In this document: positions 36,070-49,867 of the stretch, one piece after another
Layout of the letters: the number at the start of each line of letters is the position of its first letter
How positions within the stretch are numbered: the stretch's first letter is position 1
IMG/VR virus record: IMGVR_UViG_3300045988_103014
Span: 141,780-194,171 of that record
Source: a virus
Direction: 5' to 3' (one strand)
DNA: 52,392 nt
Position numbers and translations under genes: made by a program
The notes under the pieces: model-generated
Database searches by the model: none
What the model was told of the DNA's origin: nothing
What the model saw: only the letters and a program-made list of their open reading frames with translations

Positions 36070-36151
36070 AGCTATTGGCAGTCTGCACAAAAATCTCCGG
36101 CGAATTTTGTGCAAAATTACCTGTTGACATTATCCCGAAATGGTGCTATAA
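36070..36151 (+). promoter_or_regulatory. operator-promoter module 1 (drives Pnk-like kinase gene)
   Basis: TGCACAAA (36084) - 14 nt - TTTTGTGCA (36105), then TTGACA 36124, spacer with ATCCCGAAAT, TATAAT 36146. Confidence 0.55.
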
Positions 36152-36183
36152 TAATTATAGTAAATGAGAGAGAGGTAATGACT

Positions 36184-36615
36184 ATGAGTACAATGTTCGT
36201 AACAATCGGAATGCCTGGATGTGGTAAGAGCACTTGGGCACAGACTAAAAACGCAAGAGTGATTTCATCTGACGCAATTCGCGAAGAGATGTTCGGAGAT
36301 GAAGCAATTCAGGGCGACCCTCGCAAGGTATTCGCAGAGGTTTACAAGAGACTTGCACAGGCTCTCATTGATGATGTGGATGTAATCTTTGACGCAACCA
36401 ACCTCGACTACAAGAGAGCAAAAGCAATCGAAATGTGCTACGAAATGGATTGCGAATGTGTTGCCGTTTACTTTGATGTAGACGCACAGACTTGCATTGA
36501 GAGACAGAACATGCGTTCTCGCAAAGTTCCTGCGTCAGTTATTCGCAGAATGTCTCATCAGTTAGTTGTTCCTTACCTCGAAGAGGGTTGGACACGAATT
36601 GAAAAAGTTTCGTAA
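36184..36615 (+). CDS. polynucleotide 5'-kinase (T4 Pnk kinase-domain homologue, P-loop NTPase)
   Basis: MSTMFVTIGMPGCGKSTWA... (Walker A), DATNLDYKR and VPASVIRRM segments align with the T4 Pnk kinase domain (LTIGCPGSGKSTWA ... ISDTNLNPERR ... VPIDVLRSM). The second ATG, 8 nt after GAGAGG, is the start. Confidence 0.8.
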   Translation: MSTMFVTIGMPGCGKSTWAQTKNARVISSDAIREEMFGDEAIQGDPRKVFAEVYKRLAQALIDDVDVIFDATNLDYKRAKAIEMCYEMDCECVAVYFDVDAQTCIERQNMRSRKVPASVIRRMSHQLVVPYLEEGWTRIEKVS

Positions 36616-36622
36616 AAGGGGG

Positions 36623-36651
36623 TTGACAAACACCCCTTTCGGTGCTATAAT
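36623..36651 (+). promoter_or_regulatory. hairpin-embedded promoter for 36684 gene
   Basis: TTGACA lies in the loop of GGGGG...CCCC; 17-nt spacer; TATAAT. Positions were confirmed by the TTG-start ORF in the track. Confidence 0.6.
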
Positions 36652-36683
36652 TAACTTATCAAATGAAAGAGAGGAAATGAAAA

Positions 36684-37022
36684 ATGTTTACAATAATTGC
36701 TTTAATAATCGCAATGATAATGAATGGAGTACCAACAGAGAACCTCAATGAAGTCAAGGTGTACAGTGACACAATGTGCGTTGTTGATGTAAACTACGCA
36801 GAGGACATTGTAACAATCGCAGACTTTAATGGATTTGAATTTCAGTTCGAGGGTTGTGAGGATTGGCTTGAGGGGGACCTTTGCTCTGTGACAATGTGCG
36901 ACAATGGAACAGAAAAAATCTTTGATGATGTAATCCTTGGCACAAGATACAGTGGTTGGGTTGAACAATGGGGTTTTGACATCGAAAGCAATGAGTATTT
37001 ATACTATTTTGATTTTGATTAA
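36684..37022 (+). CDS. hypothetical protein with N-terminal hydrophobic segment (112 aa)
   Basis: MFTIIALIIAMIMNG... signal/TM-like N-terminus; own hairpin-embedded promoter at 36623-36651. Confidence 0.45.
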   Translation: MFTIIALIIAMIMNGVPTENLNEVKVYSDTMCVVDVNYAEDIVTIADFNGFEFQFEGCEDWLEGDLCSVTMCDNGTEKIFDDVILGTRYSGWVEQWGFDIESNEYLYYFDFD

Positions 37023-37040
37023 AAAATTCAAAAAAAGGGG

Positions 37041-37069
37041 TTGACAAGTTCAACCCCATCTGTTATAAT
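37041..37069 (+). promoter_or_regulatory. hairpin-embedded promoter for 2H phosphoesterase gene
   Basis: GGGGTTGACAAGTTCAACCCC (8-bp stem) - TATAAT. Confidence 0.55.
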
Positions 37070-37099
37070 TAAATCATCAAAGAGAGAGAGGTAGATAAA

Positions 37100-37474
37100 A
37101 TGATTTACACCGCATTATTTATTAACGAAGAAGATAGAAGAACATCAAGACTTGATAAGACAATCGAGTTTCAGCACATCACACATCAGTTCAGACCAAA
37201 GACAGTAGATGAACGCTTATTCGGTCAGCAAGCAACTCTCAAGGTTGTTGGCTATGGTATCAACGAAGAGAATGAGGGCTACCTTGTAGAAATCGTTGAG
37301 GCTTCCGAGGAATTGAGAGAGGCTTTTGCAAGTGTTGAAGTACCTCACATCACAATCGGCATTTCCAACAGTGGCAAGGCTGTCAATACAAGATACCTTG
37401 AGTTTGAGGAAATTGAGCCTTTTGAAATCGTGGCAACTTACGGAGGTTTCTGCGGCGACCACGTAAAATTCTAA
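37100..37474 (+). CDS. 2H phosphoesterase superfamily protein (LigT / cyclic phosphodiesterase / Acb1-like), compact 124 aa
   Basis: Two H-x-T-x motifs (FQHITHQF near residue 26; VPHITIGIS near residue 82). N-terminal MIYTALFI resembles the LigT beta1 strand (RLFIAI). A VVGYGINEENEGYLVEIVEASEELREAF stretch separates the two motifs as in 2H enzymes. Confidence 0.5.
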   Translation: MIYTALFINEEDRRTSRLDKTIEFQHITHQFRPKTVDERLFGQQATLKVVGYGINEENEGYLVEIVEASEELREAFASVEVPHITIGISNSGKAVNTRYLEFEEIEPFEIVATYGGFCGDHVKF

Positions 37475-37493
37475 AAAAAGTTTCAAAAAGGGG

Positions 37494-37522
37494 TTGACAA
37501 ATGCCCCTTTTGGAGCTATAAT
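37494..37522 (+). promoter_or_regulatory. hairpin-embedded promoter for 37557 gene
   Basis: AAAAGGGGTTGACAAATGCCCCTTTT; 17-nt spacer; TATAAT. Confidence 0.55.
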
Positions 37523-37556
37523 AATTATAGAAAGAAACGAAAGAGAGGTAATTACA

Positions 37557-37736
37557 ATGAACGAAATGAGAGAGAACTTACTTGATAGAATGATTAGAAT
37601 TTACGGATTTGAACACGAGGTAGTAATCGAGTTCGCAAGAATGTGCGAGAGCGACGCATACACCGACAAAGACCTTGAGGTGCTTGTGAAGTGCCACGAG
37701 GAAAACCCAGTTGGGTTTGATGAGGACGAGGAGTAA
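37557..37736 (+). CDS. small acidic protein (59 aa)
   Basis: MNEMRENLLDRMIRIYGFEHEVVIEFARMCESDAYTDKDLEVLVKCHEENPVGFDEDEE; own promoter at 37494-37522. Confidence 0.45.
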   Translation: MNEMRENLLDRMIRIYGFEHEVVIEFARMCESDAYTDKDLEVLVKCHEENPVGFDEDEE

Positions 37737-37815
37737 TCCTTGTCCTTTTCATTTGGCGGCGCGCTTTCGGCCCTGGCGCGCCGAATTTATATTATACCAT
37801 ACCACCCGGGATTTT

Positions 37816-37910
37816 GTCAAGAGAAAATTTGCACAAATTTTTGGCGTTCAATTTCCCGAAATTTGTGCACATTTACCTATTGACAAATGGCTCAAGCTTT
37901 GCTATACTAT
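37816..37910 (+). promoter_or_regulatory. operator-promoter module 2 (drives a ~110-nt non-coding leader)
   Basis: GTCAAGAG ... TGCACAAAT (37830) - 22 nt incl. TTTCCCGAA - ATTTGTGCA (37861) ... CCTATTGACA (-35 37880) - 17 - TATACT. Confidence 0.55.
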
Positions 37911-37916
37911 AATTAC

Positions 37917-39269: not shown

Positions 39270-39276
39270 AAAGGGG

Positions 39277-39305
39277 TTGACAAAACCCCTTGCAAGGGGT
39301 ATAAT
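39277..39305 (+). promoter_or_regulatory. hairpin-embedded promoter for 39326 gene
   Basis: GGGGTTGACAAAACCCC, then an alternative hairpin CCCCTTGCAAGGGG overlapping the spacer; TATAAT. Confidence 0.5.
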
Positions 39306-39517: not shown

Positions 39518-39607
39518 ACTCTGCAAGCATTTTTTTGCCCAAGTTTGGGCGCCGCGCGCACGAACGATGCGCGCGGAATTTTCATTATACCATACCCCAC
39601 AGCTTTT

Positions 39608-39700
39608 GTCAAGAGAAAAGTTGCACAAATTTTCAATCGGTGCTATTCCCGAAATTTGTGCATTTTGCCAGTAGACAAAGCTCTGTTGGAGTGTTATAAT
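39608..39700 (+). promoter_or_regulatory. operator-promoter module 3
   Basis: GTCAAGAG ... TGCACAAAT (39622) - 22 nt incl. TTCCCGAA - ATTTGTGCA (39653), then TAGACA-17-TATAAT. Confidence 0.55.
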
Positions 39701-39731: not shown

Positions 39732-39845
39732 ATGACAGTATTTTATTTATTCGATGAGTATGGAGTTTGTTGTGGCACTACTACTGACGAGGACTATGCG
39801 TCAGCGTGGGCAGATGCGAACGAGGGCTATTATTGTTGCGATTAG
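39732..39845 (+). CDS. tiny acidic Cys-rich peptide (37 aa)
   Basis: MTVFYLFDEYGVCCGTTTDEDYASAWADANEGYYCCD; ATG 8 nt after GAGAGG; operator-type promoter upstream. Confidence 0.3.
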   Translation: MTVFYLFDEYGVCCGTTTDEDYASAWADANEGYYCCD

Positions 39846-40139: not shown

Positions 40140-40168
40140 GTGTAGCTGAAAAAAATTTCAAAAAGGGG

Positions 40169-40198
40169 TTGACAAGTTCCCCACAGTGTGCTATACTT
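40169..40198 (+). promoter_or_regulatory. hairpin-embedded promoter for NDT-like gene
   Basis: GGGGTTGACAAGTTCCCC; TATACT. Confidence 0.5.
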
Positions 40199-40227: not shown

Positions 40228-40629
40228 ATGAAGATTTATTTGGCAAGTCCATTTTTTAATCAGTTAGAAAGAGCAAATGTTGTAAAGGTCGCAGAGAGAT
40301 TGCGTGCCGAGGGTCACGAGGTCTATGTTCCAATGGAACACGAGATTGAAAATGCGTGGGATTTACCTAACAATGAATGGTCACGCAGAGTATTCAAAGA
40401 CGATGTTGACGCAATTCGCAAGGCTGACAAGGTTGTTGCAATCACTTATGGAATGACTGATGACGCAGGAACTTCGTGGGAGATTGGCTTTGCTTACGGC
40501 ATTGACAAAACTGTTGAGGTTATTTCTGTAAATCAGACAACTTATTCTTTAATGGTTTATCAGAGTTGTGCAGAGGTTTCAGACCTTGACGGAAACCCAT
40601 TAAGAAAAAAAGAAATTTTACAAAGTTAG
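40228..40629 (+). CDS. nucleoside 2-deoxyribosyltransferase-fold protein (NDT / Rcl-DNPH1-like)
   Basis: MKIYLASPFF (compare IYFGAGWF) and DDAGTSWEIGFAYGIDKTV (compare EDVGLGMELGYALSQGKYV) are the two signature segments of the Nuc_deoxyrib_tr fold. Confidence 0.6.
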   Translation: MKIYLASPFFNQLERANVVKVAERLRAEGHEVYVPMEHEIENAWDLPNNEWSRRVFKDDVDAIRKADKVVAITYGMTDDAGTSWEIGFAYGIDKTVEVISVNQTTYSLMVYQSCAEVSDLDGNPLRKKEILQS

Positions 40630-40632
40630 GGG

Positions 40633-40661
40633 TTGACAAAACCCCACTAATGGGGTATAAT
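40633..40661 (+). promoter_or_regulatory. hairpin-embedded promoter for 40693 gene
   Basis: GGGGTTGACAAAACCCC plus an alternative CCCCACTAATGGGG; TATAAT. Confidence 0.5.
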
Positions 40662-41519: not shown

Positions 41520-41564
41520 GTCCATTTGAGCCTGCCGCGCCCGATGGTTGCGGCCGGTATTTTT

Positions 41565-41648
41565 GTCAATAGGTAGTCTGCACAAATTTTGCCACCAAAC
41601 TTTGTGCATTTTGTACAGTTGACATTTTCCCGTATCTATGGTATTATA
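41565..41648 (+). promoter_or_regulatory. operator-promoter module 4 (drives DEDDh exonuclease 1)
   Basis: GTCAATAGG ... TGCACAAAT (41579) - 13 - TTTGTGCA (41601), then TTGACA (41619, confirmed by track) - TTTTCCCGTATCTATGG - TATTAT. Confidence 0.6.
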
Positions 41649-42624: not shown

Positions 42625-42700
42625 AATTCTCGTCCTTTTTCAGCGCCGCGCCGGCGAACGTCCGGCGCGGTGTTTATTATACCACATCGGCTCAGCATTT

Positions 42701-42795
42701 GTCAAGAGGAAAATTGCACAAATTTTCAAATAATTTTTTTTCCCAATTTGTACAATCTGCCTATTGATTTTTATTAAAAAATTTGGTATTATAAT
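42701..42795 (+). promoter_or_regulatory. operator-promoter module 5 (degenerate right arm)
   Basis: GTCAAGAGG ... TGCACAAAT (42715) ... TTTTTCCCAATTTGTACA ... CCTATTGATT (-35) - 17 - TGgTATTAT. Confidence 0.45.
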
Positions 42796-42864
42796 AGTGT
42801 CAAAAGGAAAGGGAATAAAAAAACCGAGAGGAAAAAAAATTCCAAAAAAAAATGAAAAACCTAT

Positions 42865-42892
42865 TGACAAAATAAAAAAAATTTGTTATAAT
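42865..42892 (+). promoter_or_regulatory. middle promoter of triple stack upstream of wHTH A1
   Basis: TTGACA-16-TATAAT in A-tract DNA. Confidence 0.5.
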
Positions 42893-42961
42893 AATTATAC
42901 AAGGTAAGGAAAGAATTAAAAAGCAAAAGCCAATCGGCAATAAAAAAAATAAAAAAAGTGC

Positions 42962-42990
42962 TTGACATTCTTCAAAACCTATGTTATAAT
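42962..42990 (+). promoter_or_regulatory. proximal promoter of wHTH A1
   Basis: TTGACA-17-TATAAT. Confidence 0.55.
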
Positions 42991-43033
42991 AACAATGTAA
43001 ACAAAGTAAACCAACTCAAATCAAGAAAGGTAA

Positions 43034-43438
43034 ATGGTGGTAATTATGGAAAAGATGACTAATGTTAAGGCAATCGAGTATGTTCTTGCAAACGCAACTC
43101 TCCCTACTGATGTAAAGGAGAAGTTAGAGAAGATGAAGGCACAGTTTGTGAAGAAGAACTCTGCCGACAGAAAGCCTACTGCAAATCAGGTTGAGAACGC
43201 AGAGTTTAAGGTGGCAATCCTTGACTACCTTGCAACTGTTGAGTCTGCGACTATCTCCGACTTAATGAAGTCCGTTCCTGCTCTTGCAGAACTCTCAAAT
43301 CAGAGAGTATCGGCAATCGTTAGACAGTTAAAGGACTCTGGCGAGGTTGTTAGAGAGGAAATCAAGAGAAAGGCTTACTTCTCTCTTGCCGAGGACTCTG
43401 CCGACCTTGACGAGTCCGAGGACTCTGACGAGGAGTAA
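43034..43438 (+). CDS. winged-helix DNA-binding protein, paralogue A1 of a triplicated family
   Basis: TISDLMKSVPALAELSNQRVSAIVRQLKDSGEVVREEIKRKAYF reads as helix-turn-helix plus wing; acidic C-tail. About 70% identical to 44536..44928 and 48749..49132. The true start may be the ATG at 43046. Confidence 0.55.
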   Translation: MVVIMEKMTNVKAIEYVLANATLPTDVKEKLEKMKAQFVKKNSADRKPTANQVENAEFKVAILDYLATVESATISDLMKSVPALAELSNQRVSAIVRQLKDSGEVVREEIKRKAYFSLAEDSADLDESEDSDEE

Positions 43439-43521: not shown

Positions 43522-43893
43522 ATGACAAACGAAGAAAGAATTGAACAGTTGATGAAAAGTCTTGATTGTAGTCGAGAAGAAGCAATCCAAGTAATCGCAG
43601 ACGATGAAGCCATTGACAAGGGCGAAAAGTTGTTTGAACTCTCTGCCGAACAGAAAAAGGCGAGCAAAGACGCACGAAACACAGGTGCGAAAAAGCCGAC
43701 CGTTTACAAGTTCGATACTTCCAAGAGAAAGAAAGCCGAGAATGTGGGCAAACGCACATTGATTGATACAATCAAAGCAAGCCTTGATGAAATCGGTGTC
43801 GAGGGAATGGAAGTCACGAACCCCGAACGAGAGTTGAACTTCTCCGTTGATGGTGTCAAGTACAAAATCGTGTTGAGTTGCCCGAGAAAGTAG
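43522..43893 (+). CDS. hypothetical protein, paralogue B1 (pairs with 49230..49640)
   Basis: Shares KKPTVYKFDT and the C-terminal beta-rich region with paralogue B2. Confidence 0.45.
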   Translation: MTNEERIEQLMKSLDCSREEAIQVIADDEAIDKGEKLFELSAEQKKASKDARNTGAKKPTVYKFDTSKRKKAENVGKRTLIDTIKASLDEIGVEGMEVTNPERELNFSVDGVKYKIVLSCPRK

Positions 43894-43900
43894 GGCAACT

Positions 43901-44002
43901 TGCACAAATAAAATTCTCTGTTTTGCACAAAGTTCCAGCCGGAATTTTGTGCAATTTTTTTTATCCAAAAGGCTTGACAAAAGCGGCGACCTGTGCTATA
44001 AT
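43901..44002 (+). promoter_or_regulatory. operator-promoter module 6 (two left half-sites)
   Basis: TGCACAAAT (43901) + TGCACAAAG (43924) - 12 nt - TTTTGTGCA (43945), then TTGACA-16-TATAAT. The transcript immediately enters a GC hairpin. Confidence 0.5.
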
Positions 44003-44062
44003 GGCGCGCCGCTGTCGGCAGCAGCGGCGTGAATTTCCAGTATACCACACTCTCAGCAATTT

Positions 44063-44156
44063 GTCAAGCAAAAACTCCAGGGCAATCTGCACAAATCTTT
44101 TTCCCGAAATTTGTGCAACATTGCCTATTGCATTTTGGGGGTGGGTGTGCTATACT
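44063..44156 (+). promoter_or_regulatory. operator-promoter module 7
   Basis: GTCAAG ... TGCACAAAT (44088) - CTTTTTCCCGAA - ATTTGTGCA (44109) ... CCTATTGCAT (-35) - 17 - TATACT. Confidence 0.5.
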
Positions 44157-44324
44157 TATAATTGTCAAGGGGAGGTGGCAACGTCCGATACGAACACTGA
44201 AAAAAAATTGACAAAACCCCTTGACAAACCTCTCTCAATAGTGTATAATGATTATACAAGGTAGGGATAACAAATGAGATTGAAACCCACTTAAAATAAG
44301 TCAAAAAAAACTATTGACAAATAA

Positions 44325-44353
44325 ATAAAAAAGTGTTATAATAAATATATAAA
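44325..44353 (+). promoter_or_regulatory. distal promoter upstream of wHTH A2
   Basis: TTGACA-17-TATAAT. Confidence 0.5.
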
Positions 44354-44465
44354 GAAAAGGAAAGCGTCTTAAAAGTCGGTGTGGAAAACTCCTATGGCAT
44401 TAAAACTCGCGAGGTGTTAAGAGAAAACCCATTGCAGACAATTTCAAAAAAAATTAAAAAAAACA

Positions 44466-44494
44466 CTTGACAATTAAATAAAGAAATGTTATAA
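44466..44494 (+). promoter_or_regulatory. proximal promoter of wHTH A2
   Basis: TTGACA-17-TATAAT. Confidence 0.55.
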
Positions 44495-44535
44495 TAATAA
44501 TGTAAACAAAACAAATCACATTCAAAGAAAGGTAA

Positions 44536-44928
44536 ATGGTGGTAAACATGGAAAAGATGACAAACGTAAAGGCAATTGATTTCGTACTTGGCAACTGTGA
44601 GGTTCCTGCTGATGTAAAGGAAAAGTTGGAGAAGATGAAGGCTCAGTTCATCAAGAAGTCTAGTGCGGAGCGTAAGCCTACCGCAAATCAGACTGAGAAC
44701 GCAAGCCTCAAGGTGGCTATCCTCGACGCAATGGAAGAGGGTAAGGGTTACACCATCACCGACTTGATGAAGGTTGTGCCTGAACTTGCAGACCTCTCTA
44801 ATCAGAGGGTAAGTGCAATCGTTCGTCAGATGAAGGACGAGGGTACTGTAACTCGTGAGGAGATTAAGCGTAAGGCTTACTTCACAAAGGCAACTGACGA
44901 GGTTGCCGACCTTGAGGACGAGGAGTAA
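44536..44928 (+). CDS. winged-helix DNA-binding protein, paralogue A2
   Basis: Same architecture as A1; preceded by two tandem consensus promoters in AT-rich DNA. Confidence 0.55.
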   Translation: MVVNMEKMTNVKAIDFVLGNCEVPADVKEKLEKMKAQFIKKSSAERKPTANQTENASLKVAILDAMEEGKGYTITDLMKVVPELADLSNQRVSAIVRQMKDEGTVTREEIKRKAYFTKATDEVADLEDEE

Positions 44929-45026
44929 TCCTCGCCCCCTTGGGGGTAACTGAATAACGGATAAACTAGGGCGGTTTGAGCAAAGGCTTGAACCGCCCGC
45001 TTACGTTCGACGCGGGCGGTGTTTTC

Positions 45027-45109
45027 GTCAATAGGCAGTTTCAACAAATTTTCGGCGTAAAATTTGTGCAATTTTACCTATTGCAATTTTCCCGTAATCG
45101 TGGTATTAT
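45027..45109 (+). promoter_or_regulatory. operator-promoter module 8
   Basis: GTCAATAGGCAG - TTCAACAAAT (degenerate left) - 13 - TTTGTGCA (45063) ... CCTATTGCAA (-35) - TTTTCCCGTAATCGTGG - TATTAT. Confidence 0.5.
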
Positions 45110-45415
45110 AATAATGTCAAGAGGGGATGGTAACTCGGTAACAAGTCCTTAAAAAATTTTCACAAGAGTTGAAAAAACCTCTTGACAACCTCTCTCAAAG
45201 GTGCTATAATGAGAGAGTAGAAAGGAAATAAGAAATGGCACAGATAGTAATTTGTTGTGGTGGACAACCCACAGAAAAAGATAAGCGAGAGATTTACAAC
45301 TTGCTTGAGTTCAAAAAAAGATTAAAAAAAATAAAAAAGGTATTGACAAACCTACAAAGTAGTGTTATAATAAATACATAAAGAACAGAAAACAAATCAC
45401 AGAAAGAGAGAGGTA

Positions 45416-45991
45416 ATGAGTATGAATTACAGAGAAATGCAGACAATCGCAAAGGTTAATGAAGTAGTAAAGATGATTGAGGCTCTTGGTCTTAACGGAG
45501 AGTTCACAAAGAAACAGTTTGACAAGGTTCGTGCAAACGGCTCTACAAGTCTTGATTGGATGAGAGAACAGGGTATGAGAGCAAACGGACAGTTCGGTTG
45601 CAAGCCTTGGCGTAAAGAAACTTTCAGACCTATCGCAAAGTTGGTTCGTCAGGAGTATTTCACAATCACTCTCAAAGAGCCTATCGAAAAGAGAGTTGTT
45701 GTCACTGCCGACGGCAAAGAAATTCCTAATGTCAAGGCTGATGACATTCGTTGGAACTCTACCGCAAAGGCACTTCTTGAGCAGATTTTCCCTGGCTTTA
45801 GAATTGACTATGTAACAACAAATGAAATCGAGGTTTGCCGTAACTATTACGAAATCGACTATGATGTAGTAAGAGAAATGGTAGATTGGTGCGAGAGTAA
45901 GAATGCACTTGTTGCCGACTACTACGGCGAGAAACTTGCAAAAGCAAGAGCCGAGGTTGCAAGACTTGAAAGAATTGTGAGTGCTTTCTAA
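45416..45991 (+). CDS. hypothetical protein (191 aa)
   Basis: Own promoter (~45343-45371); RBS GAGAGAGG. Confidence 0.45.
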   Translation: MSMNYREMQTIAKVNEVVKMIEALGLNGEFTKKQFDKVRANGSTSLDWMREQGMRANGQFGCKPWRKETFRPIAKLVRQEYFTITLKEPIEKRVVVTADGKEIPNVKADDIRWNSTAKALLEQIFPGFRIDYVTTNEIEVCRNYYEIDYDVVREMVDWCESKNALVADYYGEKLAKARAEVARLERIVSAF

Positions 45992-46068
45992 AAGAAAAGA
46001 GGTGGGGGAGCAATCCCCCTACCTCTCTCAATAAATTTTCGCAGCTACAAAAATTTTTCCAAAAGGTA

Positions 46069-46097
46069 TTGACAAACTATAAATTTAATGTTATAAT
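46069..46097 (+). promoter_or_regulatory. promoter for HExxH gene
   Basis: TTGACA-17-TATAAT (position confirmed via the TTG-start ORF in the track). Confidence 0.55.
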
Positions 46098-46122
46098 AAT
46101 TATAGAAAGTGAGGAAAGAACT

Positions 46123-46608
46123 ATGGGACTTAAAGGAATTAAAACAATAAACAGAACATTAAATAAGTTTCTCGCACCTTTTGAGTGTACTGCAAGAATG
46201 GGAACTGAATTTTGTTATTTATACAGTAAGAGTTTGATTTTGTATTCGTTTGTAATGCCCGACCTCGAAATTGAACACGATTTCCAAGCAAGCATTGACC
46301 GACTTAATCCAACAGTAAAAATGGATAGTTTCCTTTGGGGTTTGCTTCACGAACTCGGACACCACGAAACAATGGACGAAATCGAGGACGAAGAATACGA
46401 GTATTGCCAACAGGTAAAAGAGCAAATCAACAACCAAGAGGTAGACGCAGTTGAATACTACGACCTCATTGATGAACGACTTGCGACAGAGTGGGCTGTG
46501 AGATACGCAGACGCCCACGCACTCGAACTCAAAAAGTGGTGGGAAGAAGAAATGCAACCTGCGATAATGCACTTTTACAAAATCAACAATGTAGAAATCG
46601 AGGGGTAA
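46123..46608 (+). CDS. HExxH-motif protein (putative small zinc metallopeptidase, ImmA/IrrE-like?)
   Basis: LLHELGHHETMDE contains HELGH followed by H and E, then an acidic run. Track ORF starts at TTG (= -35 box); ATG 46123 after AGTGAGGAAAG. Confidence 0.35.
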   Translation: MGLKGIKTINRTLNKFLAPFECTARMGTEFCYLYSKSLILYSFVMPDLEIEHDFQASIDRLNPTVKMDSFLWGLLHELGHHETMDEIEDEEYEYCQQVKEQINNQEVDAVEYYDLIDERLATEWAVRYADAHALELKKWWEEEMQPAIMHFYKINNVEIEG

Positions 46609-46664
46609 CACCCTCGGTTTTTTAATTTGAGCCGCGCGCCAGTGAACGTGGCGCGTGGTGTTTT

Positions 46665-46747
46665 GTCAAGAGTAATACTGCACAAATTTTTCGTGCAAAA
46701 TTTGTGCAAAATGACCACTTGACTTTTTTCCCGTAATCGGCTATAAT
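46665..46747 (+). promoter_or_regulatory. operator-promoter module 9
   Basis: GTCAAGAG ... TGCACAAAT (46679) - 13 - TTTGTGCA (46701), then TTGACT - TTTTTCCCGTAATCGGC - TATAAT. Confidence 0.55.
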
Positions 46748-46778: not shown

Positions 46779-46946
46779 ATGGACGCATTCAAGAGGGAAA
46801 CTGTTGTGGGTTGCACTGTTTGGGACATCAACGCAAAGTGTGTTCATAATAAAAACAGAGCAAAGGACTATCGAAAGGTTGTTCGGTCGGCTCGCAGAAA
46901 AAATCGAGAAAATTTGAAAAAAATGCTTGACAACCTGACCGAATAG
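46779..46946 (+). CDS. small basic protein (55 aa)
   Basis: MDAFKRETVVGCTVWDINAKCVHNKNRAKDYRKVVRSARRKNRENLKKMLDNLTE; operator-type promoter upstream. Confidence 0.4.
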   Translation: MDAFKRETVVGCTVWDINAKCVHNKNRAKDYRKVVRSARRKNRENLKKMLDNLTE

Positions 46947-47579: not shown

Positions 47580-48230
47580 TTGGATTTTGGAATAATGATT
47601 GATACAGAAACTACAAACGGTTTTGATGACCCTATGTTTTATGACTGTGGGTGGCAAGTGATAGACACTCTTGGCAATGTTTACAGAGAACGCTCGTTCG
47701 TAAATGCCGACATTTTTTGTGGGGAAAAGGACTTGATGAAAGAAGCCTTTTTTGCCGACAAAATTCCTCAGTATTGGGAAGAAATCAAAGACGGCTCGCG
47801 AATGTTGGCAAGTACAAACGGAATACGCAAGGCACTTGCCGAAGATGTGCGAATGTTTGGTTGCTCGTTCATTTGTGCCCACAATGCACGATTTGACTAC
47901 AAGGCACTTGCGAAAACGCAAAGATACATCACAAAGTCAAAATACAGATACTTTGTTCCTTTTGGTCTTGTGTGGTGGGATACCTTGAAAATGGCTCGTC
48001 AAGTCTTGGGAAATGATGAACAGTACCGAGAGTTTTGCGAACTCAACGACTACATTTGCAAAAATGGACAGTTGAGAATGACAGCCGAAATCGTTTACAG
48101 ATTTATTTCTGACAATAACGATTTTGTCGAGGAACACACCGGCTTGGCTGATGTGGACATTGAAAGACAGATTTTGGCTTATTGTCTTGCAAAAATGCCA
48201 GACCTTGACCGAGAACTGTGGGGAAACTAA
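47580..48230 (+). CDS. DEDDh 3'-5' exonuclease, paralogue 2
   Basis: IDTETTNG (Exo I), HNARFDY (Exo II), HTGLADVDIERQIL (Exo III). TTG start 9 nt after GAGAGG is supported by alignment with paralogue 1. Confidence 0.6.
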   Translation: MDFGIMIDTETTNGFDDPMFYDCGWQVIDTLGNVYRERSFVNADIFCGEKDLMKEAFFADKIPQYWEEIKDGSRMLASTNGIRKALAEDVRMFGCSFICAHNARFDYKALAKTQRYITKSKYRYFVPFGLVWWDTLKMARQVLGNDEQYREFCELNDYICKNGQLRMTAEIVYRFISDNNDFVEEHTGLADVDIERQILAYCLAKMPDLDRELWGN

Positions 48231-48246
48231 CCCCCACAGTTTTTTG
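48216..48246 (+). terminator. terminator after DEDDh exonuclease paralogue 2
   Basis: CTGTGGGG-AAACTAA-CCCCACAG + T6; the stop codon lies in the loop. Confidence 0.6.
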
Positions 48247-48288
48247 TGCATTTTGCCTATTGACAAATAAATTTCCATGTGATAAAAT
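48241..48288 (+). promoter_or_regulatory. operator-promoter module 10 (right half-site only), transcript enters GC hairpin
   Basis: TTTTGTGCA (48241) ... CCTATTGACA (-35 48260) - 17 - TAAAAT. Confidence 0.4.
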
Positions 48289-48347
48289 GGCGCCGCGCCG
48301 ACGGTAGAGAGGCGCGGTAATTATTATACCACATCACCCCACAAAAA

Positions 48348-48433
48348 GTCAATAGGAAAATTGCACAAATTTTAACCCCATTTTTTATCCCAAAATTGTT
48401 ACTTTTGCCTATTGACACAAAAAGTCAATAGGC
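48348..48433 (+). promoter_or_regulatory. operator module 11 with perfect 10-bp outer palindrome
   Basis: GTCAATAGG ... TGCACAAAT (48362) ... GCCTATTGAC-ACAAAAA-GTCAATAGGC (48407-48433). Confidence 0.45.
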
Positions 48434-48505
48434 AATCTGCACAAAGATTTTCTGTTCAGTTTGTGCAATTCGCACATTGATTTTTTGTAAAAAATTTGGT
48501 ATTAT
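48434..48505 (+). promoter_or_regulatory. operator-promoter module 12 (distal promoter of wHTH A3 stack)
   Basis: TGCACAAAG (48438) - 13 - TTTGTGCA (48460), then TTGATT-17-TGgTATTAT. Confidence 0.5.
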
Positions 48506-48567
48506 TATTATACAAGGTAAGGGAAAGACCTTAAAAAAACTTTTCCAAAAAAATTAAAAAAAAACTG

Positions 48568-48596
48568 TTGACAAACCTTAAAAATTTTGTTATAAT
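48568..48596 (+). promoter_or_regulatory. middle promoter upstream of wHTH A3 (near-identical to 29388 promoter)
   Basis: TTGACAAACCTTAAAAATTTTGtTATAAT, versus ...TTTTGaTATAAT at 29388. Confidence 0.5.
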
Positions 48597-48675
48597 AATT
48601 ATAGAAAGTAAAGGAAAGGGAATTTCAAAAAGCCATTCGGCAAACAAAAAAAATAAAAAAAGTTGAAAAAAACCC

Positions 48676-48704
48676 TTGACAACTTTCAAAGTAAATGTTA
48701 TAAT
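48676..48704 (+). promoter_or_regulatory. proximal promoter of wHTH A3
   Basis: TTGACA-17-TATAAT. Confidence 0.55.
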
Positions 48705-48748
48705 AAGTATGTAAGGTAAACAAAAACAAATCACTCAAAGAAAGGTAA

Positions 48749-49132
48749 ATGGTGGTAATTATGGAAAAAATGACTAATGTAAAGGCTCTTGATGTTGTTC
48801 TTAATGGTGGCGAAATCACTGCCGAGGTTCGTGAGAAACTTCAGAAAATGCGTGAGCAGTTTGTGAAGAAAAATTCTGCCGAGAGAAAGCCTACGGCAAA
48901 TCAGACCGAGAATGCCTCTCTCAAGGTTGCCATTGTGAACGCAATGGAAATCGGTCGCAAGTACACTATTACGGACTTGATGAAAGCCGTACCTGAACTT
49001 GCCGACCTCTCAAATCAGAGAGTGTCTGCCATTGTCCGTCAGATGAAAGACGAGGGAACGGTTGTTCGTACCGAGGAAAAGCGTAAGGCTTATTTCGAGG
49101 TTGCCGTTACTGACGAGGGTGAGGACGAGTAA
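48749..49132 (+). CDS. winged-helix DNA-binding protein, paralogue A3
   Basis: ITDLMKAVPELADLSNQRVSAIVRQMKDEGTVVRTEEKRKAYF; three stacked promoters upstream. Confidence 0.55.
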   Translation: MVVIMEKMTNVKALDVVLNGGEITAEVREKLQKMREQFVKKNSAERKPTANQTENASLKVAIVNAMEIGRKYTITDLMKAVPELADLSNQRVSAIVRQMKDEGTVVRTEEKRKAYFEVAVTDEGEDE

Positions 49133-49174
49133 TCGTCCTTTGCCCCAAAGGGCAAAAAAAGTTTCAAAAAAGGC

Positions 49175-49203
49175 TTGACAAATGCTTTCGGCTTTGGTAT
49201 AAT
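49175..49203 (+). promoter_or_regulatory. promoter for paralogue B2
   Basis: TTGACA-17-TGgTATAAT. Confidence 0.5.
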
Positions 49204-49229
49204 GATTATAGAAAGTGAGGGAAATGCTT

Positions 49230-49640
49230 ATGACAGACTACATTAAAGAGGTTATGGAAATCACAGGCTACACACAAGCCAAAGCCGAAAAGTATTATCA
49301 GTCGGTTTACAAGGACTTGTCCGAGGACGGCGAGGTATCAGCCGAAGATGTAATCGAGGTTATCCGAATTGAAAAAAAGGTTAAGGACAACGGCGTAAAG
49401 ACTGTTGCGAGAGCCGACAAGCCGAAAAAGGCACCAACTGTCTACAAATTTGACACCGAAAAGACCAAAAAACGTCCAAAGGACGAGGAAAAAGTGCAAA
49501 TTGTAGAAAAAATTGCCGAATTTATGGCAGAAATTAGCGAAAATGCTGAAATTTCCAACCCTGGACAGACAATTTCGTTCAAAATCGGCGAAAATTCGTA
49601 CAGTTTGACCTTAACCAAGCACAGAACACCGAAAAAATAG
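49230..49640 (+). CDS. hypothetical protein, paralogue B2
   Basis: KAPTVYKFDTEKTKK shared with B1; ATG 8 nt after AGTGAGGG. Confidence 0.45.
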   Translation: MTDYIKEVMEITGYTQAKAEKYYQSVYKDLSEDGEVSAEDVIEVIRIEKKVKDNGVKTVARADKPKKAPTVYKFDTEKTKKRPKDEEKVQIVEKIAEFMAEISENAEISNPGQTISFKIGENSYSLTLTKHRTPKK

Positions 49641-49647
49641 TGCAATT

Positions 49648-49746
49648 TGCACAAAAAACCGGTGTCAAGGGGCAAAACCGACAAGGTTTGCCCCATTTTT
49701 TTGTGCATTTTTACTATTGACAAAGGGGGTCGGTCTGTGGTATAAT
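49648..49746 (+). promoter_or_regulatory. operator-promoter module 13 (terminator hairpin between half-sites)
   Basis: GTGCAATTTGCACAAAA (49642-49657; palindrome) ... terminator ... TTTGTGCA (49700), then TTGACA-18-TATAAT. The transcript enters hairpin GGGCCGGCCGC...GCGGCCGG. Confidence 0.5.
49669..49702 (+). terminator. terminator after paralogue B2, embedded between operator half-sites
   Basis: GGGGCAAA-ACCGACAAGG-TTTGCCCC + T7. Confidence 0.6.
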
Positions 49747-49782
49747 GGGCCGGCCGCTGACGCAAGCTGCGGCCGGAATTTC

Positions 49783-49867
49783 GTCAATAGGCAACATTCA
49801 CAAATTTTTCTCTCAAAATTTGTGCAATTTGACGGGTTGACTTTTTTCCCAAAATGGTGTATTATAG
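49783..49867 (+). promoter_or_regulatory. operator-promoter module 14
   Basis: GTCAATAGG ... TTCACAAAT - 15 - AATTTGTGCA (49820), then TTGACT - TTTTTCCCAAAATGGTGT - TATTAT. Confidence 0.5.

What the first reader, a model, noticed from the sequence alone, without database searches (positions are those of the whole stretch)
36070..49867. About 14 copies of a nested-palindrome operator fused to the -35 box: a phage regulon
At least 14 single-gene cassettes carry one composite site. It reads GTCAATAGG (or GTCAAGAG) - N5-8 - TGCACAAAT - N12-22 (often containing TTTCCCGAA) - ATTTGTGCA - N5-7 - CCTATTGACA. The outer-right arm CCTATTGACA is itself the -35 hexamer. A conserved spacer TTTTCCCG(A/T)AAT(C)G and TATAAT follow. 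One copy (48407-48433) is a perfect 10-bp palindrome, GCCTATTGAC-N7-GTCAATAGGC. The half-site TTGCACAAA also occurs as an abutted palindrome, TTTGTGCAATTTGCACAAA, at 34475-34491 and 49642-49657. Repeating a symmetric site over every promoter is the classic signature of a dimeric or tetrameric repressor (or activator) controlling a temporal class, comparable to mycobacteriophage stoperators. The driven genes include the Pnk-like kinase, DEDDh exonuclease 1, small acidic proteins, one promoter of the wHTH-A3 stack and ncRNA candidates. The binding protein is unknown. Candidates encoded in the window are the triplicated winged-helix proteins, the AbrB-like protein and the zinc-ribbon proteins.
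Basis: seen in the sequence. Interest (0 to 1): 0.8.

Follow-up and report, generated by a model that had tools for sequence, protein, structure and literature searches.

The report
Dispersed operator on phage early promoters
A large uncultivated gut phage carries about 15 copies of a composite control region in which a conserved protein-binding site (TTTGTGCA-N3-TG…) sits just upstream of the -35 box of host-type promoters, and the same site recurs in over a hundred related phage sequences, so it is most likely the operator of a still unidentified phage regulator.

Summary
All 26 exact TTTGTGCA/TGCACAAA words lie in 34.4-49.9 kb. They form 13 inverted pairs plus single and abutted sites, in 15 modules.

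The "nested palindrome" is not one symmetric site. Its unit is an autonomous operator, TTTGTGCA-N3-TG.., whose full form is the 19-bp palindrome TTTGTGCA-N3-TGCACAAA. Operators pair at fixed spacings: head-to-head N14 or N24, so centres lie 33 or 43 bp apart.

The outer arms are -35 hexamers. Five belong to complete antisense promoters that fire into GC-rich hairpins; six are -35-like relics.

In 99 related loci, 857 unique sites keep the same sequence and spacing. 381 are fused to promoters and 423 are not. Changes in the two arms are not compensatory, so this is not a folded hairpin and not merely promoter consensus.

The best reading is a dispersed operator for a phage-encoded dimeric regulator. 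The leading candidate is the triplicated winged-helix protein, but the binder and the sign of regulation are unproven.

The modules also sit at the boundaries of cassette insertions and deletions, as T4 PeSLs do. The kind of system is known (SPβ SPBRE/MrpR, P1 C1 operators); this family and its layout are new.

The parts
34441..34553 (+). Module M0. Three operators 33-34 bp apart: 34441-34459 (reverse, TTTGTGCT), 34475-34493 (perfect 19-bp palindrome TTTGTGCAATTTGCACAAA) and 34508-34526 (TTTGTACA...). The last overlaps the -35 TAGACA (34525-34530). The -10 TATACT is at 34548-34553. Drives gene 34589-34831.
36036..36152 (+). Module M1 (type G). GC hairpin 36036-36062; degenerate left arm; operator cores TGCACAAA 36084-36091 and TTTGTGCA 36106-36113 (N14); -35 36124-36129; box TATCCCGAAA 36131-36140; -10 36147-36152. 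Drives the AAA_33 kinase-like gene 36175-36615.
37757..37908 (.). Module M2 (type H, bidirectional). GC hairpin 37757-37783. Minus-strand promoter: -10 37791-37796, -35 37815-37820. Operator cores 37830-37837 and 37862-37869 (N24). Box TTTCCCGAAA 37852-37861. Plus-strand promoter: -35 37880-37885, -10 TATACT 37903-37908. Downstream is a short non-coding or micro-ORF transcript.
39552..39700 (.). Module M3 (type H). GC hairpin 39552-39576. Minus-strand promoter: -10 39584-39589, -35 39607-39612. Operator cores 39622-39629 and 39655-39662 (N25). Box 39645-39654. Plus-strand promoter: -35 TAGACA 39672-39677, -10 39695-39700. Drives the small gene ~39733-39845.
41530..41647 (+). Module M4 (type G). 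GC hairpin 41530-41557; orphan -35-like arm TGTCAATAGG 41564-41573 (no -10); operator cores 41579-41586 and 41601-41608 (N14); -35 41619-41624; box 41626-41635; -10 TATTAT 41642-41647.
42643..42792 (.). Module M5 (type H). GC hairpin 42643-42671. Minus-strand promoter: -10 42676-42681, -35 42700-42705. Operator cores 42715-42722 and 42747-42754 (TTTGTACA; N24). Weak plus-strand promoter: TTGATT 42764-42769, TATTAT 42787-42792. This is the first of three tandem promoters upstream of winged-helix gene A1 (43034-43438).
43890..44002 (+). Module M6. Three operators: 43890-43908 (overlaps the stop codon of partner gene 43522-43893), 43913-43931 and 43946-43964. Consensus promoter: -35 43974-43979, -10 43997-44002. 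It fires straight into GC hairpin 44003-44031.
44003..44156 (.). Module M7 (type H). GC hairpin 44003-44031, flanked by convergent promoters. Minus-strand promoter: -10 44039-44044 (TATACT), -35 44062-44067. Operator cores 44088-44095 and 44110-44117 (N14). Box 44100-44109. Weak plus-strand promoter: TTGCAT 44128-44133, TATACT 44151-44156. Leader begins GTCAAGGGGAGG. Lies upstream of winged-helix gene A2 (44536-44928).
44992..45109 (+). Module M8 (type G). GC hairpin 44992-45020; orphan arm CGTCAATAGG 45026-45035; degenerate left core 45041-45048; right core 45063-45070; -35 TTGCAA 45081-45086; box 45088-45097; -10 TATTAT 45104-45109. It is the left boundary of a three-cassette block that relative L300 lacks.
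46631..46747 (+). Module M9 (type G). GC hairpin 46631-46659; orphan arm 46665-46672; operator cores 46679-46686 and 46701-46708 (N14); -35 TTGACT 46719-46724; box 46727-46736; -10 46742-46747. Drives gene 46779-46946. It is the right boundary of the block that L300 lacks.
48243..48316 (+). Module M10 (single unit). Operator 48243-48261; -35 48260-48265; -10 TAAAAT 48283-48288. It fires into GC hairpin 48292-48316.
48292..48417 (.). Module M11 (type H). Shares hairpin 48292-48316, which is flanked by convergent promoters. Minus-strand promoter: -10 48323-48328, -35 48347-48352. Operator core 48362-48369; degenerate partner 48395-48402. Arm CCTATTGACA 48408-48417 has no -10.
48424..48505 (+). 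Module M12. Arm GTCAATAGGC 48424-48433 forms the 10-bp palindrome with 48407-48416. Operator cores 48438-48445 and 48460-48467 (N14). The right operator TTTGTGCAATTCGCACATT is nearly the full palindrome. Weak promoter: TTGATT 48477-48482, TATTAT 48500-48505. This is the first of three tandem promoters upstream of winged-helix gene A3 (48749-49132).
49637..49776 (+). Module M13. Abutted operator 49637-49655 overlaps the stop codon of partner gene 49215-49640. An ordinary terminator hairpin follows. Single operator 49700-49718; -35 49717-49722; -10 49741-49746. It fires into GC hairpin 49750-49776.
49750..49865 (+). Module M14 (type G). GC hairpin 49750-49776; orphan arm CGTCAATAGG 49782-49791; operator cores 49797-49804 (TTCACAAA) and 49819-49826 (N14); -35 TTGACT 49837-49842; box TTTCCCAAAA 49845-49854; -10 TATTAT 49860-49865. 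Drives gene 49888-50166.
43034..43438 (+). Winged-helix protein A1, a candidate operator-binding protein. Paralogues are A2 (44536-44928) and A3 (48749-49132).
44536..44928 (+). Winged-helix protein A2, a candidate binder.
48749..49132 (+). Winged-helix protein A3, a candidate binder. The structure was predicted from this copy.

Best explanation
The repeated element is the operator of a sequence-specific DNA-binding protein, most likely encoded by the phage.

**The unit (shown).** The unit is not the nested palindrome. It is a site of 13-19 bp, TTTGTGCA-N3-TG... Its fully symmetric form is TTTGTGCA-N3-TGCACAAA, with half-site centres about one helical turn apart, as expected for a dimer. In most window copies the weaker half (TGCCTATT) runs into the -35 hexamer. 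The operator then covers about -52 to -34 of a host sigma-70-type promoter.

**Pairing (spacing shown, cooperativity inferred).** Operators come in pairs whose centres are 33 or 43 bp apart, roughly 3 or 4 helical turns. That places two bound dimers on the same face of the DNA and would allow cooperative binding.

**Two conserved layouts (shown).**
- Type G: GC hairpin, orphan arm, operator pair (N14), promoter with a TTTCCCGWAAT spacer, then a gene.
- Type H: operator pair (N24, with TTTCCCGAAA between the sites) lying between two back-to-back promoters. One promoter is antisense to the flanking genes and fires directly into a GC-rich hairpin.

**Inferred.**
- The binder is the highly expressed, triplicated winged-helix protein (A1-A3), about 40% likely.
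- It acts mainly as a repressor or feedback shut-off of this subset of early promoters and of the antisense hairpin promoters. I favour this over activation at about 55:45, because many target promoters are already consensus with an extended -10.

**Side effect (one case shown).** Because the ~130-bp modules are repeated, they also serve as recombination points at which gene cassettes are gained and lost.
For: - **Clustering and enrichment in the window:**
- **Conservation.** A scan of viral contigs with the half-module returned more than 120 loci. Ninety-nine loci (853 kb) hold at least 3 copies, at G+C from 28 to 51%.
- **Arrangement spectrum over those loci.** Tail-to-tail occurs only at N3 (37). 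Head-to-head occurs at N14 (114, plus 18 at N13) and N24 (67, plus 12 and 17). Direct repeats occur at N25 and N34-36. Every case gives operator centres 33 or 43 bp apart.
- **Autonomy.** Of 857 unique sites, 381 are fused to a promoter and 423 are not. The unfused sites still keep T at +12 and G at +13. Fifty-three are full N3 palindromes.
- **No compensatory evolution between arms.** There are 703 pair-breaking one-sided changes against 55 compensatory ones.
- **Fixed position relative to the promoter.** The -35 starts 9-10 nt after TTTGTGCA in 232 of 312 sites with TTGAC. Window table.
- **Link to hairpins.** 36% of 354 operator-fused promoters fire into a GC hairpin, against 5% of 1895 other promoters. 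The hairpins are structurally conserved but vary in sequence: 96 distinct stems in 122, median ΔG -20. Stems differ while keeping pairing in the module alignment.
- **Candidate binder.**
  - The family has 2266 homologues and no Pfam assignment. The recognition helix NQRVSA[IL]VRQ is nearly invariant.
  - AlphaFold pLDDT is 73, with helix-turn-helix plus β-wing. The best PDB folds are ArsR/SmtB, MarR, Fur and TubR types.
  - 38 of 55 loci selected by this protein alone are operator-rich.
  - An operator pair lies 300-400 nt upstream of the gene in about half of ~100 homologues, the only position-conserved gene-module link found.
  - A relative with a changed helix (NQKASALVRQ, L284) has a different upstream motif in the same place.
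Against: - No binding or expression data exist. Everything rests on sequence.
- The binder assignment is weak. L254 and L255 keep the same recognition helix and three paralogues but have only one operator module in 16 kb. They use other upstream motifs (TTGTTA-N7-TAACAA, GCCCGGGC).
- Differential presence/absence of window proteins between operator-rich and operator-poor loci singled out no protein.
- The fold match is generic and weak (E about 5e-3).
- The 'weak half-site' reading is only partly borne out. The second half is consistently TGCC-ATT, with C where the palindrome has A. That may simply be promoter context.
- No operator overlaps the -10 or the start site, which is unusual for a simple repressor. 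A centre near -43 is also the classic class II activator position.
- Regulon membership is not conserved between phages.
Confidence: 0.6

Rival explanations
1. The modules are mobile regulatory cassettes of the T4 PeSL type. In this view they are composite terminator/promoter repeats that are multiplied and kept because they mediate homologous recombination and cassette shuffling. No dedicated regulator would be needed to explain the repetition.
For: - The region consists of single-gene cassettes, each with its own promoter and terminator.
- Type-G modules align over ~130 bp as homologous units.
- The genes attached to modules differ between relatives.
- Relative L300 (~73% nucleotide identity) lacks the three cassettes between M8 and M9. 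Its single module is a hybrid of M8 (hairpin side) and M9/M14 (promoter side).
- PeSLs are described in PMC2839356 and PMC4122927.
Against: - Recombination needs only similarity. It does not explain why an 8-13-bp core stays invariant across phages of 28-51% G+C while the flanks diverge.
- It does not explain the fixed N3, N14 and N24 arrangements.
- It does not explain the 423 promoter-free sites, some in dense arrays (L153).
- The two explanations are compatible. I rate this as a real secondary role, not the primary function.
Confidence: 0.15
2. The element is part of the promoter itself. It would be an UP-like or extended -35 element read by the host RNA polymerase (alpha C-terminal domain or sigma region 4) that marks especially strong early promoters.
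For: - It holds a fixed position at -52 to -38.
- Its flanks are A/T-rich (AAAATTTGTG resembles a distal UP subsite).
- It is fused to consensus promoters.
- The same 23-nt arrangement occurs at host promoters: Fibrobacter lexA and scattered Clostridia genes.
Against: - Half of all sites have no promoter.
- Tail-to-tail N3 palindromes and phased direct repeats exist.
- The invariant core GTGCA is not UP-like.
- Most consensus promoters of the same phage lack it.
- Host-genome hits other than Fibrobacter lexA are single, heterogeneous, and about as many as chance predicts.
Confidence: 0.07
3. The sites are centromere-like or origin-like repeats. They would be bound by a TubR/AspA-like winged-helix protein for genome partition, replication initiation or DNA compaction, with any effect on promoters being secondary.
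For: - TubR and AspA are among the fold matches.
- Dense promoter-free arrays of sites with GC hairpins occur in relatives (L153).
- The genome is large, about 194 kb.
- The candidate protein is very highly expressed and triplicated.
Against: - In the window nearly every site sits in a fixed register with a -35 hexamer.
- The sites are spread over 15 kb of the early region rather than forming one array.
- No partition NTPase (TubZ, ParA or ParM) was seen in the window, though only 52 of 194 kb were examined.
- The fold matches are generic winged helices.
Confidence: 0.08
4. The nested inverted repeats act as a folded structure: an RNA hairpin serving as a terminator or RNase III site, or a DNA cruciform.
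For: - Two nested arm pairs could in principle stack into a long imperfect hairpin.
- One N14 pair followed by a T-run is flagged as terminator-like (43923-43954).
Against: - Arm changes are overwhelmingly one-sided and pair-breaking (703 against 55 compensatory).
- Outer arms differ freely from each other (CTCTTGAC against CCTATTGAC).
- Direct-repeat and tail-to-tail arrangements at fixed spacing cannot fold in this way.
- The elements lie between a terminator and a promoter, so they are mostly untranscribed.
- There is no Rfam match.
Confidence: 0.04
5. The inner arms are half-sites for host LexA, so this would be an SOS-controlled phage regulon as in GIL01 or CTXφ. The idea was prompted by the Fibrobacter lexA promoter sharing TTTGTGCA-N5-CCTATTGACAAAT.
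For: - Sixteen of sixteen Fibrobacter hits examined lie upstream of lexA.
- From my memory of Mazón et al. 2004, the Fibrobacter LexA box is TGCNC-N4-GTGCA. It uses the same TGCAC/GTGCA half-sites.
- One Clostridia hit precedes a Y-family polymerase gene.
Against: - Half-sites in the phage are 20 or 30 nt apart, or inverted at N3. They are never at N4.
- TGCNC-N4-GTGCA is not enriched in the window (7 against 7.8 expected, none exact, none in modules).
- The Fibrobacter promoter lacks the conserved T+12/G+13 of the phage operator.
- The winged-helix family shows no relation to LexA (hhalign probability 0.7%).
- The host is unknown. One conserved host locus among ~50 expected chance hits may be coincidence.
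Confidence: 0.03

Closest known systems
SPβ repeated element (SPBRE) bound by the master repressor MrpR/YopR in Bacillus phage SPβ (PMC10516654)
   Same: A short conserved site (15 bp in SPβ) is repeated in about ten promoter regions across a large siphovirus genome. It was predicted from sequence long before its binder was found, and it is bound by one phage protein that controls many promoters. The window phage is a distant relative of SPβ-like phages by portal protein (24-36% identity).
   Different: - The sequence is unrelated.
- The SPβ binder has a tyrosine-recombinase fold, whereas the candidate here is a winged helix.
- Here the sites come as phased pairs at 33 or 43 bp, often between divergent promoters and tied to a GC hairpin.
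- Whether this phage is temperate is unknown.
Phage P1 C1 repressor operators (from memory: about 17 dispersed asymmetric 17-bp operators, some 'bivalent' as overlapping inverted pairs)
   Same: An asymmetric operator is scattered over the genome. It occurs singly or as inverted, overlapping pairs that form an incomplete palindrome, and it controls many unlinked promoters.
   Different: The sequence and protein family differ. The P1 operators are not tied to hairpins or to fixed 33/43-bp phasing. This comparison rests on recalled knowledge and was not tested here.
Mycobacteriophage L5 stoperators
   Same: There are many copies of one short site throughout a phage genome, in intergenic DNA, bound by one repressor.
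   Different: As I recall them, stoperators are single asymmetric sites in one orientation relative to transcription, lying in transcribed DNA, and they block elongation. Here the sites are mostly inverted pairs upstream of promoters and behind terminators.
T4-type PeSLs, composite promoter-early/stem-loop cassettes (PMC2839356, PMC4122927)
   Same: A repeated composite of a stem-loop and an early host-type promoter separates small variable genes. Indels between relatives are bounded by the repeats (M8/M9 against L300).
   Different: PeSLs have no additional conserved protein-binding motif and no fixed operator geometry. The host and phage lineage are unrelated.
GIL01 gp6, a small LexA-N-terminal-domain-like activator that binds a site overlapping the -35 (PMC6182141)
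   Same: A small phage winged-helix protein binds a site that runs into the -35 hexamer of a phage promoter. This shows that such a position can activate as well as repress.
   Different: gp6 is a LexA homologue and the protein here is not. GIL01 has one such promoter, not a dispersed set.
Lambda OOP antisense RNA (from memory)
   Same: A short transcript comes from a promoter placed just beyond the 3' end of a convergent gene and is antisense to that gene's end. This resembles the type-H minus-strand promoters.
   Different: No transcript has been demonstrated here. The copies are many, each begins with a GC hairpin, and each is under the operator.

Membership tests
Dispersed phage operator set (SPBRE/MrpR or P1 C1 type) | One short conserved site repeated at many unlinked promoter regions of a single phage genome | tested here: met
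   There are 15 modules and about 30 sites over 34.4-49.9 kb. Nineteen sites are fused to promoter-like -35/-10 pairs.
Dispersed phage operator set (SPBRE/MrpR or P1 C1 type) | The site is conserved as sequence (not structure) across related phages, independently of the promoter hexamers | tested here: met
   857 unique sites occur in 99 loci, and 423 have no promoter. Changes between arms are not compensatory.
Dispersed phage operator set (SPBRE/MrpR or P1 C1 type) | A single phage-encoded protein binds the sites and controls the promoters | not testable with these tools
   Support for the winged-helix family is circumstantial only: fold, synteny, invariant recognition helix. L254 and L255 are counter-examples.
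Mycobacteriophage stoperators | Asymmetric sites in one orientation relative to transcription, within transcribed intergenic DNA | tested here: not met
   Sites are predominantly inverted pairs (N14 or N24) located between a terminator and the -35.
T4-type PeSL mobile regulatory cassettes | A composite of a stem-loop and an early sigma-70-type promoter, repeated between small variable genes | tested here: met
   A GC hairpin plus a promoter occurs in 11 modules. Type-G modules align over ~130 bp.
T4-type PeSL mobile regulatory cassettes | Indels or replacements between close relatives have their end points in the repeats | tested here: inconclusive
   There is one clear case: L300 lacks window 45.1-46.6 kb and carries a hybrid M8/M9 module. 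Only one genome pair was examined.
Sigma-70 UP element / extended -35 | The element occurs only as part of promoters and is A/T-rich without an invariant G/C core | tested here: not met
   49% of sites are promoter-free. The invariant core GTGCA and the N3 palindromes do not fit.
LexA (SOS) box, Fibrobacter type TGCNC-N4-GTGCA | Half-sites TGCNC and GTGCA separated by 4 nt | tested here: not met
   7 matches at ≤1 mismatch against 7.8 expected, none exact and none in modules. Phage half-sites are spaced 20 or 30 nt apart, or inverted at N3.
Structured RNA or cruciform (nested hairpin) | Compensatory base changes keep the arms paired | tested here: not met
   703 one-sided pair-breaking changes against 55 compensatory. 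No Rfam family matches.
Winged-helix DNA-binding proteins (candidate binder A1-A3) | Three-helix bundle with a recognition helix followed by a β-hairpin wing | tested here: met
   The AlphaFold model has pLDDT 73: helices H52-65, H74-80 and H89-102, then strands E105-110 and E113-118. Foldseek top hits are ArsR/SmtB, MarR, Fur, MecI and TubR (E about 5e-3, probability ≥0.99). No Pfam or PDB sequence hit was significant.

The most novel reading that the evidence does not exclude
The conserved unit may be a three-part device rather than a simple operator: an operator pair, a consensus promoter antisense to the flanking genes, and a GC-rich hairpin whose sequence varies, placed at the very start of the transcript. 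In some copies the hairpin is bracketed by face-to-face promoters only 33-40 bp apart.

If so, the phage would make a family of operator-controlled short antisense or hairpin RNAs. These might be OOP-like silencers of the upstream cassette, put-like antitermination signals, or decoys. Switching between sense and antisense promoters sharing one operator pair would then time the expression of individual single-gene cassettes. That would be a regulatory architecture not described for any phage.
Probability: 0.2. Interest if true: 0.75.

Novelty: new variant of a known kind. Interest (0 to 1): 0.5.

Why it matters
This clade of roughly 100-200 kb gut and rumen phages is abundant in metagenomes. 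The candidate binder family alone has 2266 homologues. The clade has no cultured member and no known regulator.

A sharply defined, clade-wide operator with a short list of candidate binders gives a direct experimental route into how these phages time early gene expression. It also provides a sequence tag for recognising their early regions in metagenomes.

The fixed 33/43-bp pairing and the link to antisense promoters and GC hairpins suggest a control logic beyond a plain repressor-operator pair. The same modules appear to be the joints at which early gene cassettes are exchanged, so regulation and genome plasticity are tied together.

Tried and rejected
- **Near-identical or annotated relatives.** Megablast of 36-50 kb against 50,697 phage records found nothing. 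tblastn of the winged-helix protein against the same records found nothing.
- **Known RNAs.** The window has no Rfam family and no tRNA. Nine host-like loci have no Rfam family downstream of the motif.
- **LexA hypothesis.** Rejected on box spacing and on the absence of homology between the winged-helix family and LexA.
- **Host-promoter hypothesis.** Non-Fibrobacter genome hits lie upstream of unrelated genes: glutamine synthetase, a cysteine desulfurase-like gene, PadR- and MarR-like regulators, a Y-family polymerase. Their number is about what chance predicts.
- **Host identification.** Phage-like contigs are binned into MAGs of many phyla (Treponema, Endomicrobiaceae, Methanobrevibacter, Bacilli, Clostridia). 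This is uninformative. The source is gut metagenomes.
- **Presence/absence of window proteins in operator-rich against operator-poor loci.** No discriminating protein emerged.
- **Partner protein (43522-43893) as binder.** The model is confident (pLDDT 83) but has no fold match (best E 0.48) and no Pfam hit.
- **PDB sequence search with the winged-helix profile.** Nothing significant.
- **Conserved regulon membership.** Rejected.
- **Literature search for the motif strings.** It returned only unrelated primer sequences.

Full report
**Setting.** The window comes from a large tailed phage known only from gut metagenomes.
- An identical winged-helix gene lies on contigs of 193.9-194.2 kb.
- Bases 2.5-29.3 kb carry minus-strand virion genes: a 3221-aa tape measure, portal, terminase and a sigma-like protein.
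- The portal is 24-36% identical to those of phAss-1, SPβ-like and large Enterococcus phages.
- From ~30 kb onward the plus strand holds small early genes. Almost every gene has its own near-consensus TTGACA-N17-TATAAT promoter and its own terminator. About 47 such promoters lie between 34.5 and 51.2 kb.
- No annotated phage is similar at the DNA level.

- CCTATTGACA (≤1 mismatch) occurs 21 times against 3.2 expected.
- All 26 exact TTTGTGCA/TGCACAAA words lie between 34475 and 49826.
- Inverted pairs number 19 against 1.5 in shuffles.
- I count 15 modules (M0-M14; coordinates).
- The 10-bp palindrome at 48407-48433, the abutted palindrome at 34475-34493 and the TTTTCCCGWAAT spacer are all as described.

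Three things need correcting or adding.
- The inner spacing takes only two values, N14 (nine modules) or N24-25 (four).
- A GC-rich hairpin (ΔG -17 to -27 kcal/mol) belongs to nearly every module.
- The left outer arm is the -35 of a complete minus-strand promoter in five modules. These carry TTGACA or TTGACT, a 17-18 nt spacer, and TGGTATAAT or TGGTATACT, with -10 elements at 37791, 39584, 42676, 44039 and 48323.
- In six other modules the left arm is -35-like but has no -10.

**Anatomy.** Two layouts recur, and both are conserved in relatives.
- *Type G* (M1, M4, M8, M9, M14):
  - GC hairpin, ~8 nt, GTCAATAGG, 5 nt;
  - TGCACAAA, N14, TTTGTGCA, 10 nt;
  - TTGAC(A/T), TTTTCCCGWAAT.., TATAAT, then a gene.
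- *Type H* (M2, M3, M5, M7, M11):
  - GC hairpin, then a minus-strand promoter pointing back into it;
  - TGCACAAA, N24 (N14 in M7) with TTTCCCGAAA next to the right-hand site, TTTGTGCA, 5 nt;
  - CCTATTGACA and a plus-strand promoter.
- *Single units* (M10, M13, and M6 as a variant) follow a terminator and fire straight into a GC hairpin. The hairpins at 44003-44031 and 48292-48316 are therefore bracketed by face-to-face promoters whose -10 elements are only 33-40 bp apart.

**Relatives.**
- A viral-contig scan with TTTGTGCA-N4-7-CCTATTGA returned more than 120 loci. Single hits are about what chance predicts.
- Ninety-nine loci (853 kb; G+C 28-51%) hold three or more copies, with the same architecture.
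- The arrangement spectrum over these loci is sharp:
  - tail-to-tail only at N3 (37 cases);
  - head-to-head at N14 (114, plus 18 at N13) and N24 (67, plus 12 and 17);
  - direct repeats at N25 and N34-36.
- If the operator is the 19-bp unit beginning at TTTGTGCA, every one of these puts operator centres 33 or 43 bp apart, about three or four helical turns.
- Of 857 unique sites, 381 are fused to a promoter and 423 are not. The latter still conserve T at +12 and G at +13. Fifty-three are full palindromes TTTGTGCA-N3-TGCACAAA.
- Some relatives carry dense promoter-free arrays of sites mixed with GC hairpins (L153).
- Differences between the two arms are overwhelmingly one-sided: 703 pair-breaking against 55 compensatory.

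Taken together these results exclude promoter consensus and a folded hairpin as explanations. They point to a sequence-specific protein that binds as a dimer, with adjacent dimers on one face of the helix.

**Position and likely action.**
- When fused, the operator covers about -52 to -34 (centre near -43) and its weak half, TGCCTATT, supplies the first bases of the -35.
- That position suits either occlusion of the -35/alpha contacts or class II-type activation. GIL01 gp6 is a documented small winged-helix activator at such a site (PMC6182141).
- Many targets, above all the hairpin promoters, are already perfect consensus with an extended -10. This favours negative control.
- Several plus-strand targets have weakened hexamers (TTGATT, TTGCAT, TTGCAA, TAGACA). 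This leaves activation open.
- I therefore commit to 'operator of a phage regulator, probably a cooperative repressor or shut-off factor', and I mark the sign as inferred.

**Who binds?**
- The only proteins in the window with a recognisable DNA-binding fold are:
  - three paralogous 127-134-aa winged-helix proteins (43034, 44536, 48749);
  - a MazE/AbrB-like protein (30905-31165);
  - some zinc ribbons.
- The winged-helix family:
  - has 2266 homologues and no Pfam model;
  - has a nearly invariant recognition helix NQRVSA[IL]VRQ;
  - has a predicted fold (pLDDT 73) that matches ArsR/MarR/Fur/TubR-type winged helices, weakly.
- Each paralogue is preceded by three tandem promoters, the first of which carries a module.
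- An operator pair 300-400 nt upstream is found for about half of ~100 homologues. This is the only gene-module link that is conserved in position.
- Of 55 loci retrieved through this protein alone, 38 are operator-rich.
- A lineage with an altered helix (NQKASALVRQ, L284) has a different motif (AAAATATATTAT with CCGGGCG) at the same place.
- Against this, L254 and L255 keep the helix yet have a single operator module and otherwise use TTGTTA-N7-TAACAA.
- Presence/absence analysis singled out no protein.
- The adjacent 'partner' protein, whose stop codon is overlapped by operators in both copies, folds confidently but matches nothing.
- I put the winged-helix assignment at about 0.4.

**The hairpin link.**
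- Across the clade, 16% of 2249 consensus-like promoters are operator-fused.
- 36% of these fire directly into a GC-rich hairpin, against 5% of the rest.
- The transcript would begin GGAAAUUYCG, followed by a hairpin with 96 distinct stems among 122 copies.
- Stem sequences differ between copies while pairing is kept in the module alignment.
- In the window and in L153 these promoters are antisense to the neighbouring genes. They point at the 3' end and terminator of the upstream cassette.
- On the sense strand the hairpin is followed by a weak T-run. On the antisense strand an A-rich stretch follows.
- Whether the product is an OOP-like antisense RNA, a 5' stabiliser, an antitermination signal, or nothing at all cannot be decided here. 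It is the most unusual feature of the system.

**Recombination.**
- Gene-module associations are not conserved: exonuclease-like gene 8 of 77, NT5C 9 of 75.
- Relative L300 (~73% nucleotide identity) lacks the three cassettes between M8 and M9. It carries one hybrid module.
- This is the behaviour described for T4 PeSLs (PMC2839356, PMC4122927).
- I regard this as a genuine secondary role of the repeats.

**A lead that failed.**
- The genome scan hit about 35 Fibrobacter MAGs, always upstream of lexA.
- As I recall it, the Fibrobacter SOS box TGCNC-N4-GTGCA uses the same half-sites.
- But the phage never uses N4 spacing, and that box is not enriched in the window.
- The Fibrobacter promoter lacks the operator's T+12/G+13.
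- The winged-helix family is unrelated to LexA.
- This is probably coincidence or distant convergence. The host remains unknown.

**Comparison and novelty.**
- In kind this is a dispersed phage operator set. The best parallels are SPβ's SPBRE/MrpR (PMC10516654) and, from memory, the P1 C1 operators with their 'bivalent' inverted forms.
- It is not a stoperator system, because orientation and position fail.
- The new elements are:
  - the sequence family;
  - its breadth in an uncultured clade;
  - the strict 33/43-bp pairing;
  - the TTTCCCGAAA companion box;
  - the coupling to antisense promoters and GC hairpins.

**Verdict.**
- It is a new variant of a known kind.
- Interest is 0.5.

Noticed in passing
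window 37037-37057, 37490-37512, 39273-39293, 40165-40187, 40629-40650 and others: In many operator-free cassettes the -35 hexamer TTGACA sits in the loop of a GGGG...CCCC hairpin followed by T's. The terminator of one gene and the promoter of the next are therefore physically fused.
   Followed up: no
window 42764-43030, 44128-44530, 48477-48745: Each winged-helix paralogue is preceded by a stack of three or four tandem promoters. Each promoter is followed by a short purine-rich, SD-like leader without an ORF (GTCAAGGGGAGG..., ACAAGGTAAGGAAAG...). The same leaders are conserved in relatives L079 and L254. They may be 5' stabilisers or small RNAs.
   Followed up: partly
window 36131-36140, 37852-37861, 39645-39654, 41626-41635, 44100-44109, 45088-45097, 46727-46736, 49845-49854, 50937-50946: A second conserved box, TTTCCCGWAA, occurs always on the plus strand and once per module. 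It lies either in the -35/-10 spacer (type G) or abutting the operator (type H). It is conserved in relatives as TGCACAAATTTCGGGAT. It may bind a second factor.
   Followed up: partly
window 50830-51110 (homologous to L300 8319-9092): A 280-bp G+C-rich non-coding block lies behind promoter 50797. It contains several CATATG-centred palindromes, GAATTTCC and TTTTTCCCGAAAA. It is conserved in a 73%-identical relative. Its function is unknown; it could be an ncRNA, an origin or a genome-end feature.
   Followed up: no
L122, L126, L130, L143 and ~30 other Fibrobacter loci: Fibrobacter lexA promoters carry TTTGTGCA-N5-CCTATTGACAAAT, followed by a TGCCC-AATT-GTGCA palindrome in the spacer. This is a striking 20+ nt match to the phage promoter type.
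   Followed up: yes
L284 3700-12500; L254 400-12700: More distant relatives keep the cassette architecture and the winged-helix genes but carry other motifs upstream of the -35. L284 has CCGGGCG plus AAAATATATTAT. L254 has GCCCGGGC plus TTGTTA-N7-TAACAA.
   Followed up: partly
window 45110-46630 versus L300 3447-3576: Three gene cassettes (45235-45381, 45416-45991, 46069-46608) are absent from relative L300. Its single module is a hybrid of M8 and M9/M14.
   Followed up: yes
window 43890-43908 and 49637-49655: In both copies of the conserved 'partner' gene that follows a winged-helix gene, an operator overlaps the stop codon. The partner protein has a confident predicted fold with no PDB match.
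   Followed up: partly
window 34430-34960: A long CA-rich low-complexity stretch (ACACACAAC...) surrounds and follows gene 34589-34831.
   Followed up: no
window 19358, 31004, 36507, 47285, 47688, 49056: GAAC-N4-GTTC, the core of the Gram-positive LexA box, occurs 6 times against 0.8 expected. None of the six lies in a module.
   Followed up: no
window 2582-12247, 28271-29329, 30088-30888: The window holds a 3221-aa tape-measure protein, which implies a very long tail. It also holds a sigma-factor-like gene beside the terminase, transcribed from a sigma-70-type promoter in the divergent region 29330-29420, and a FolD-type metabolic gene.
   Followed up: no
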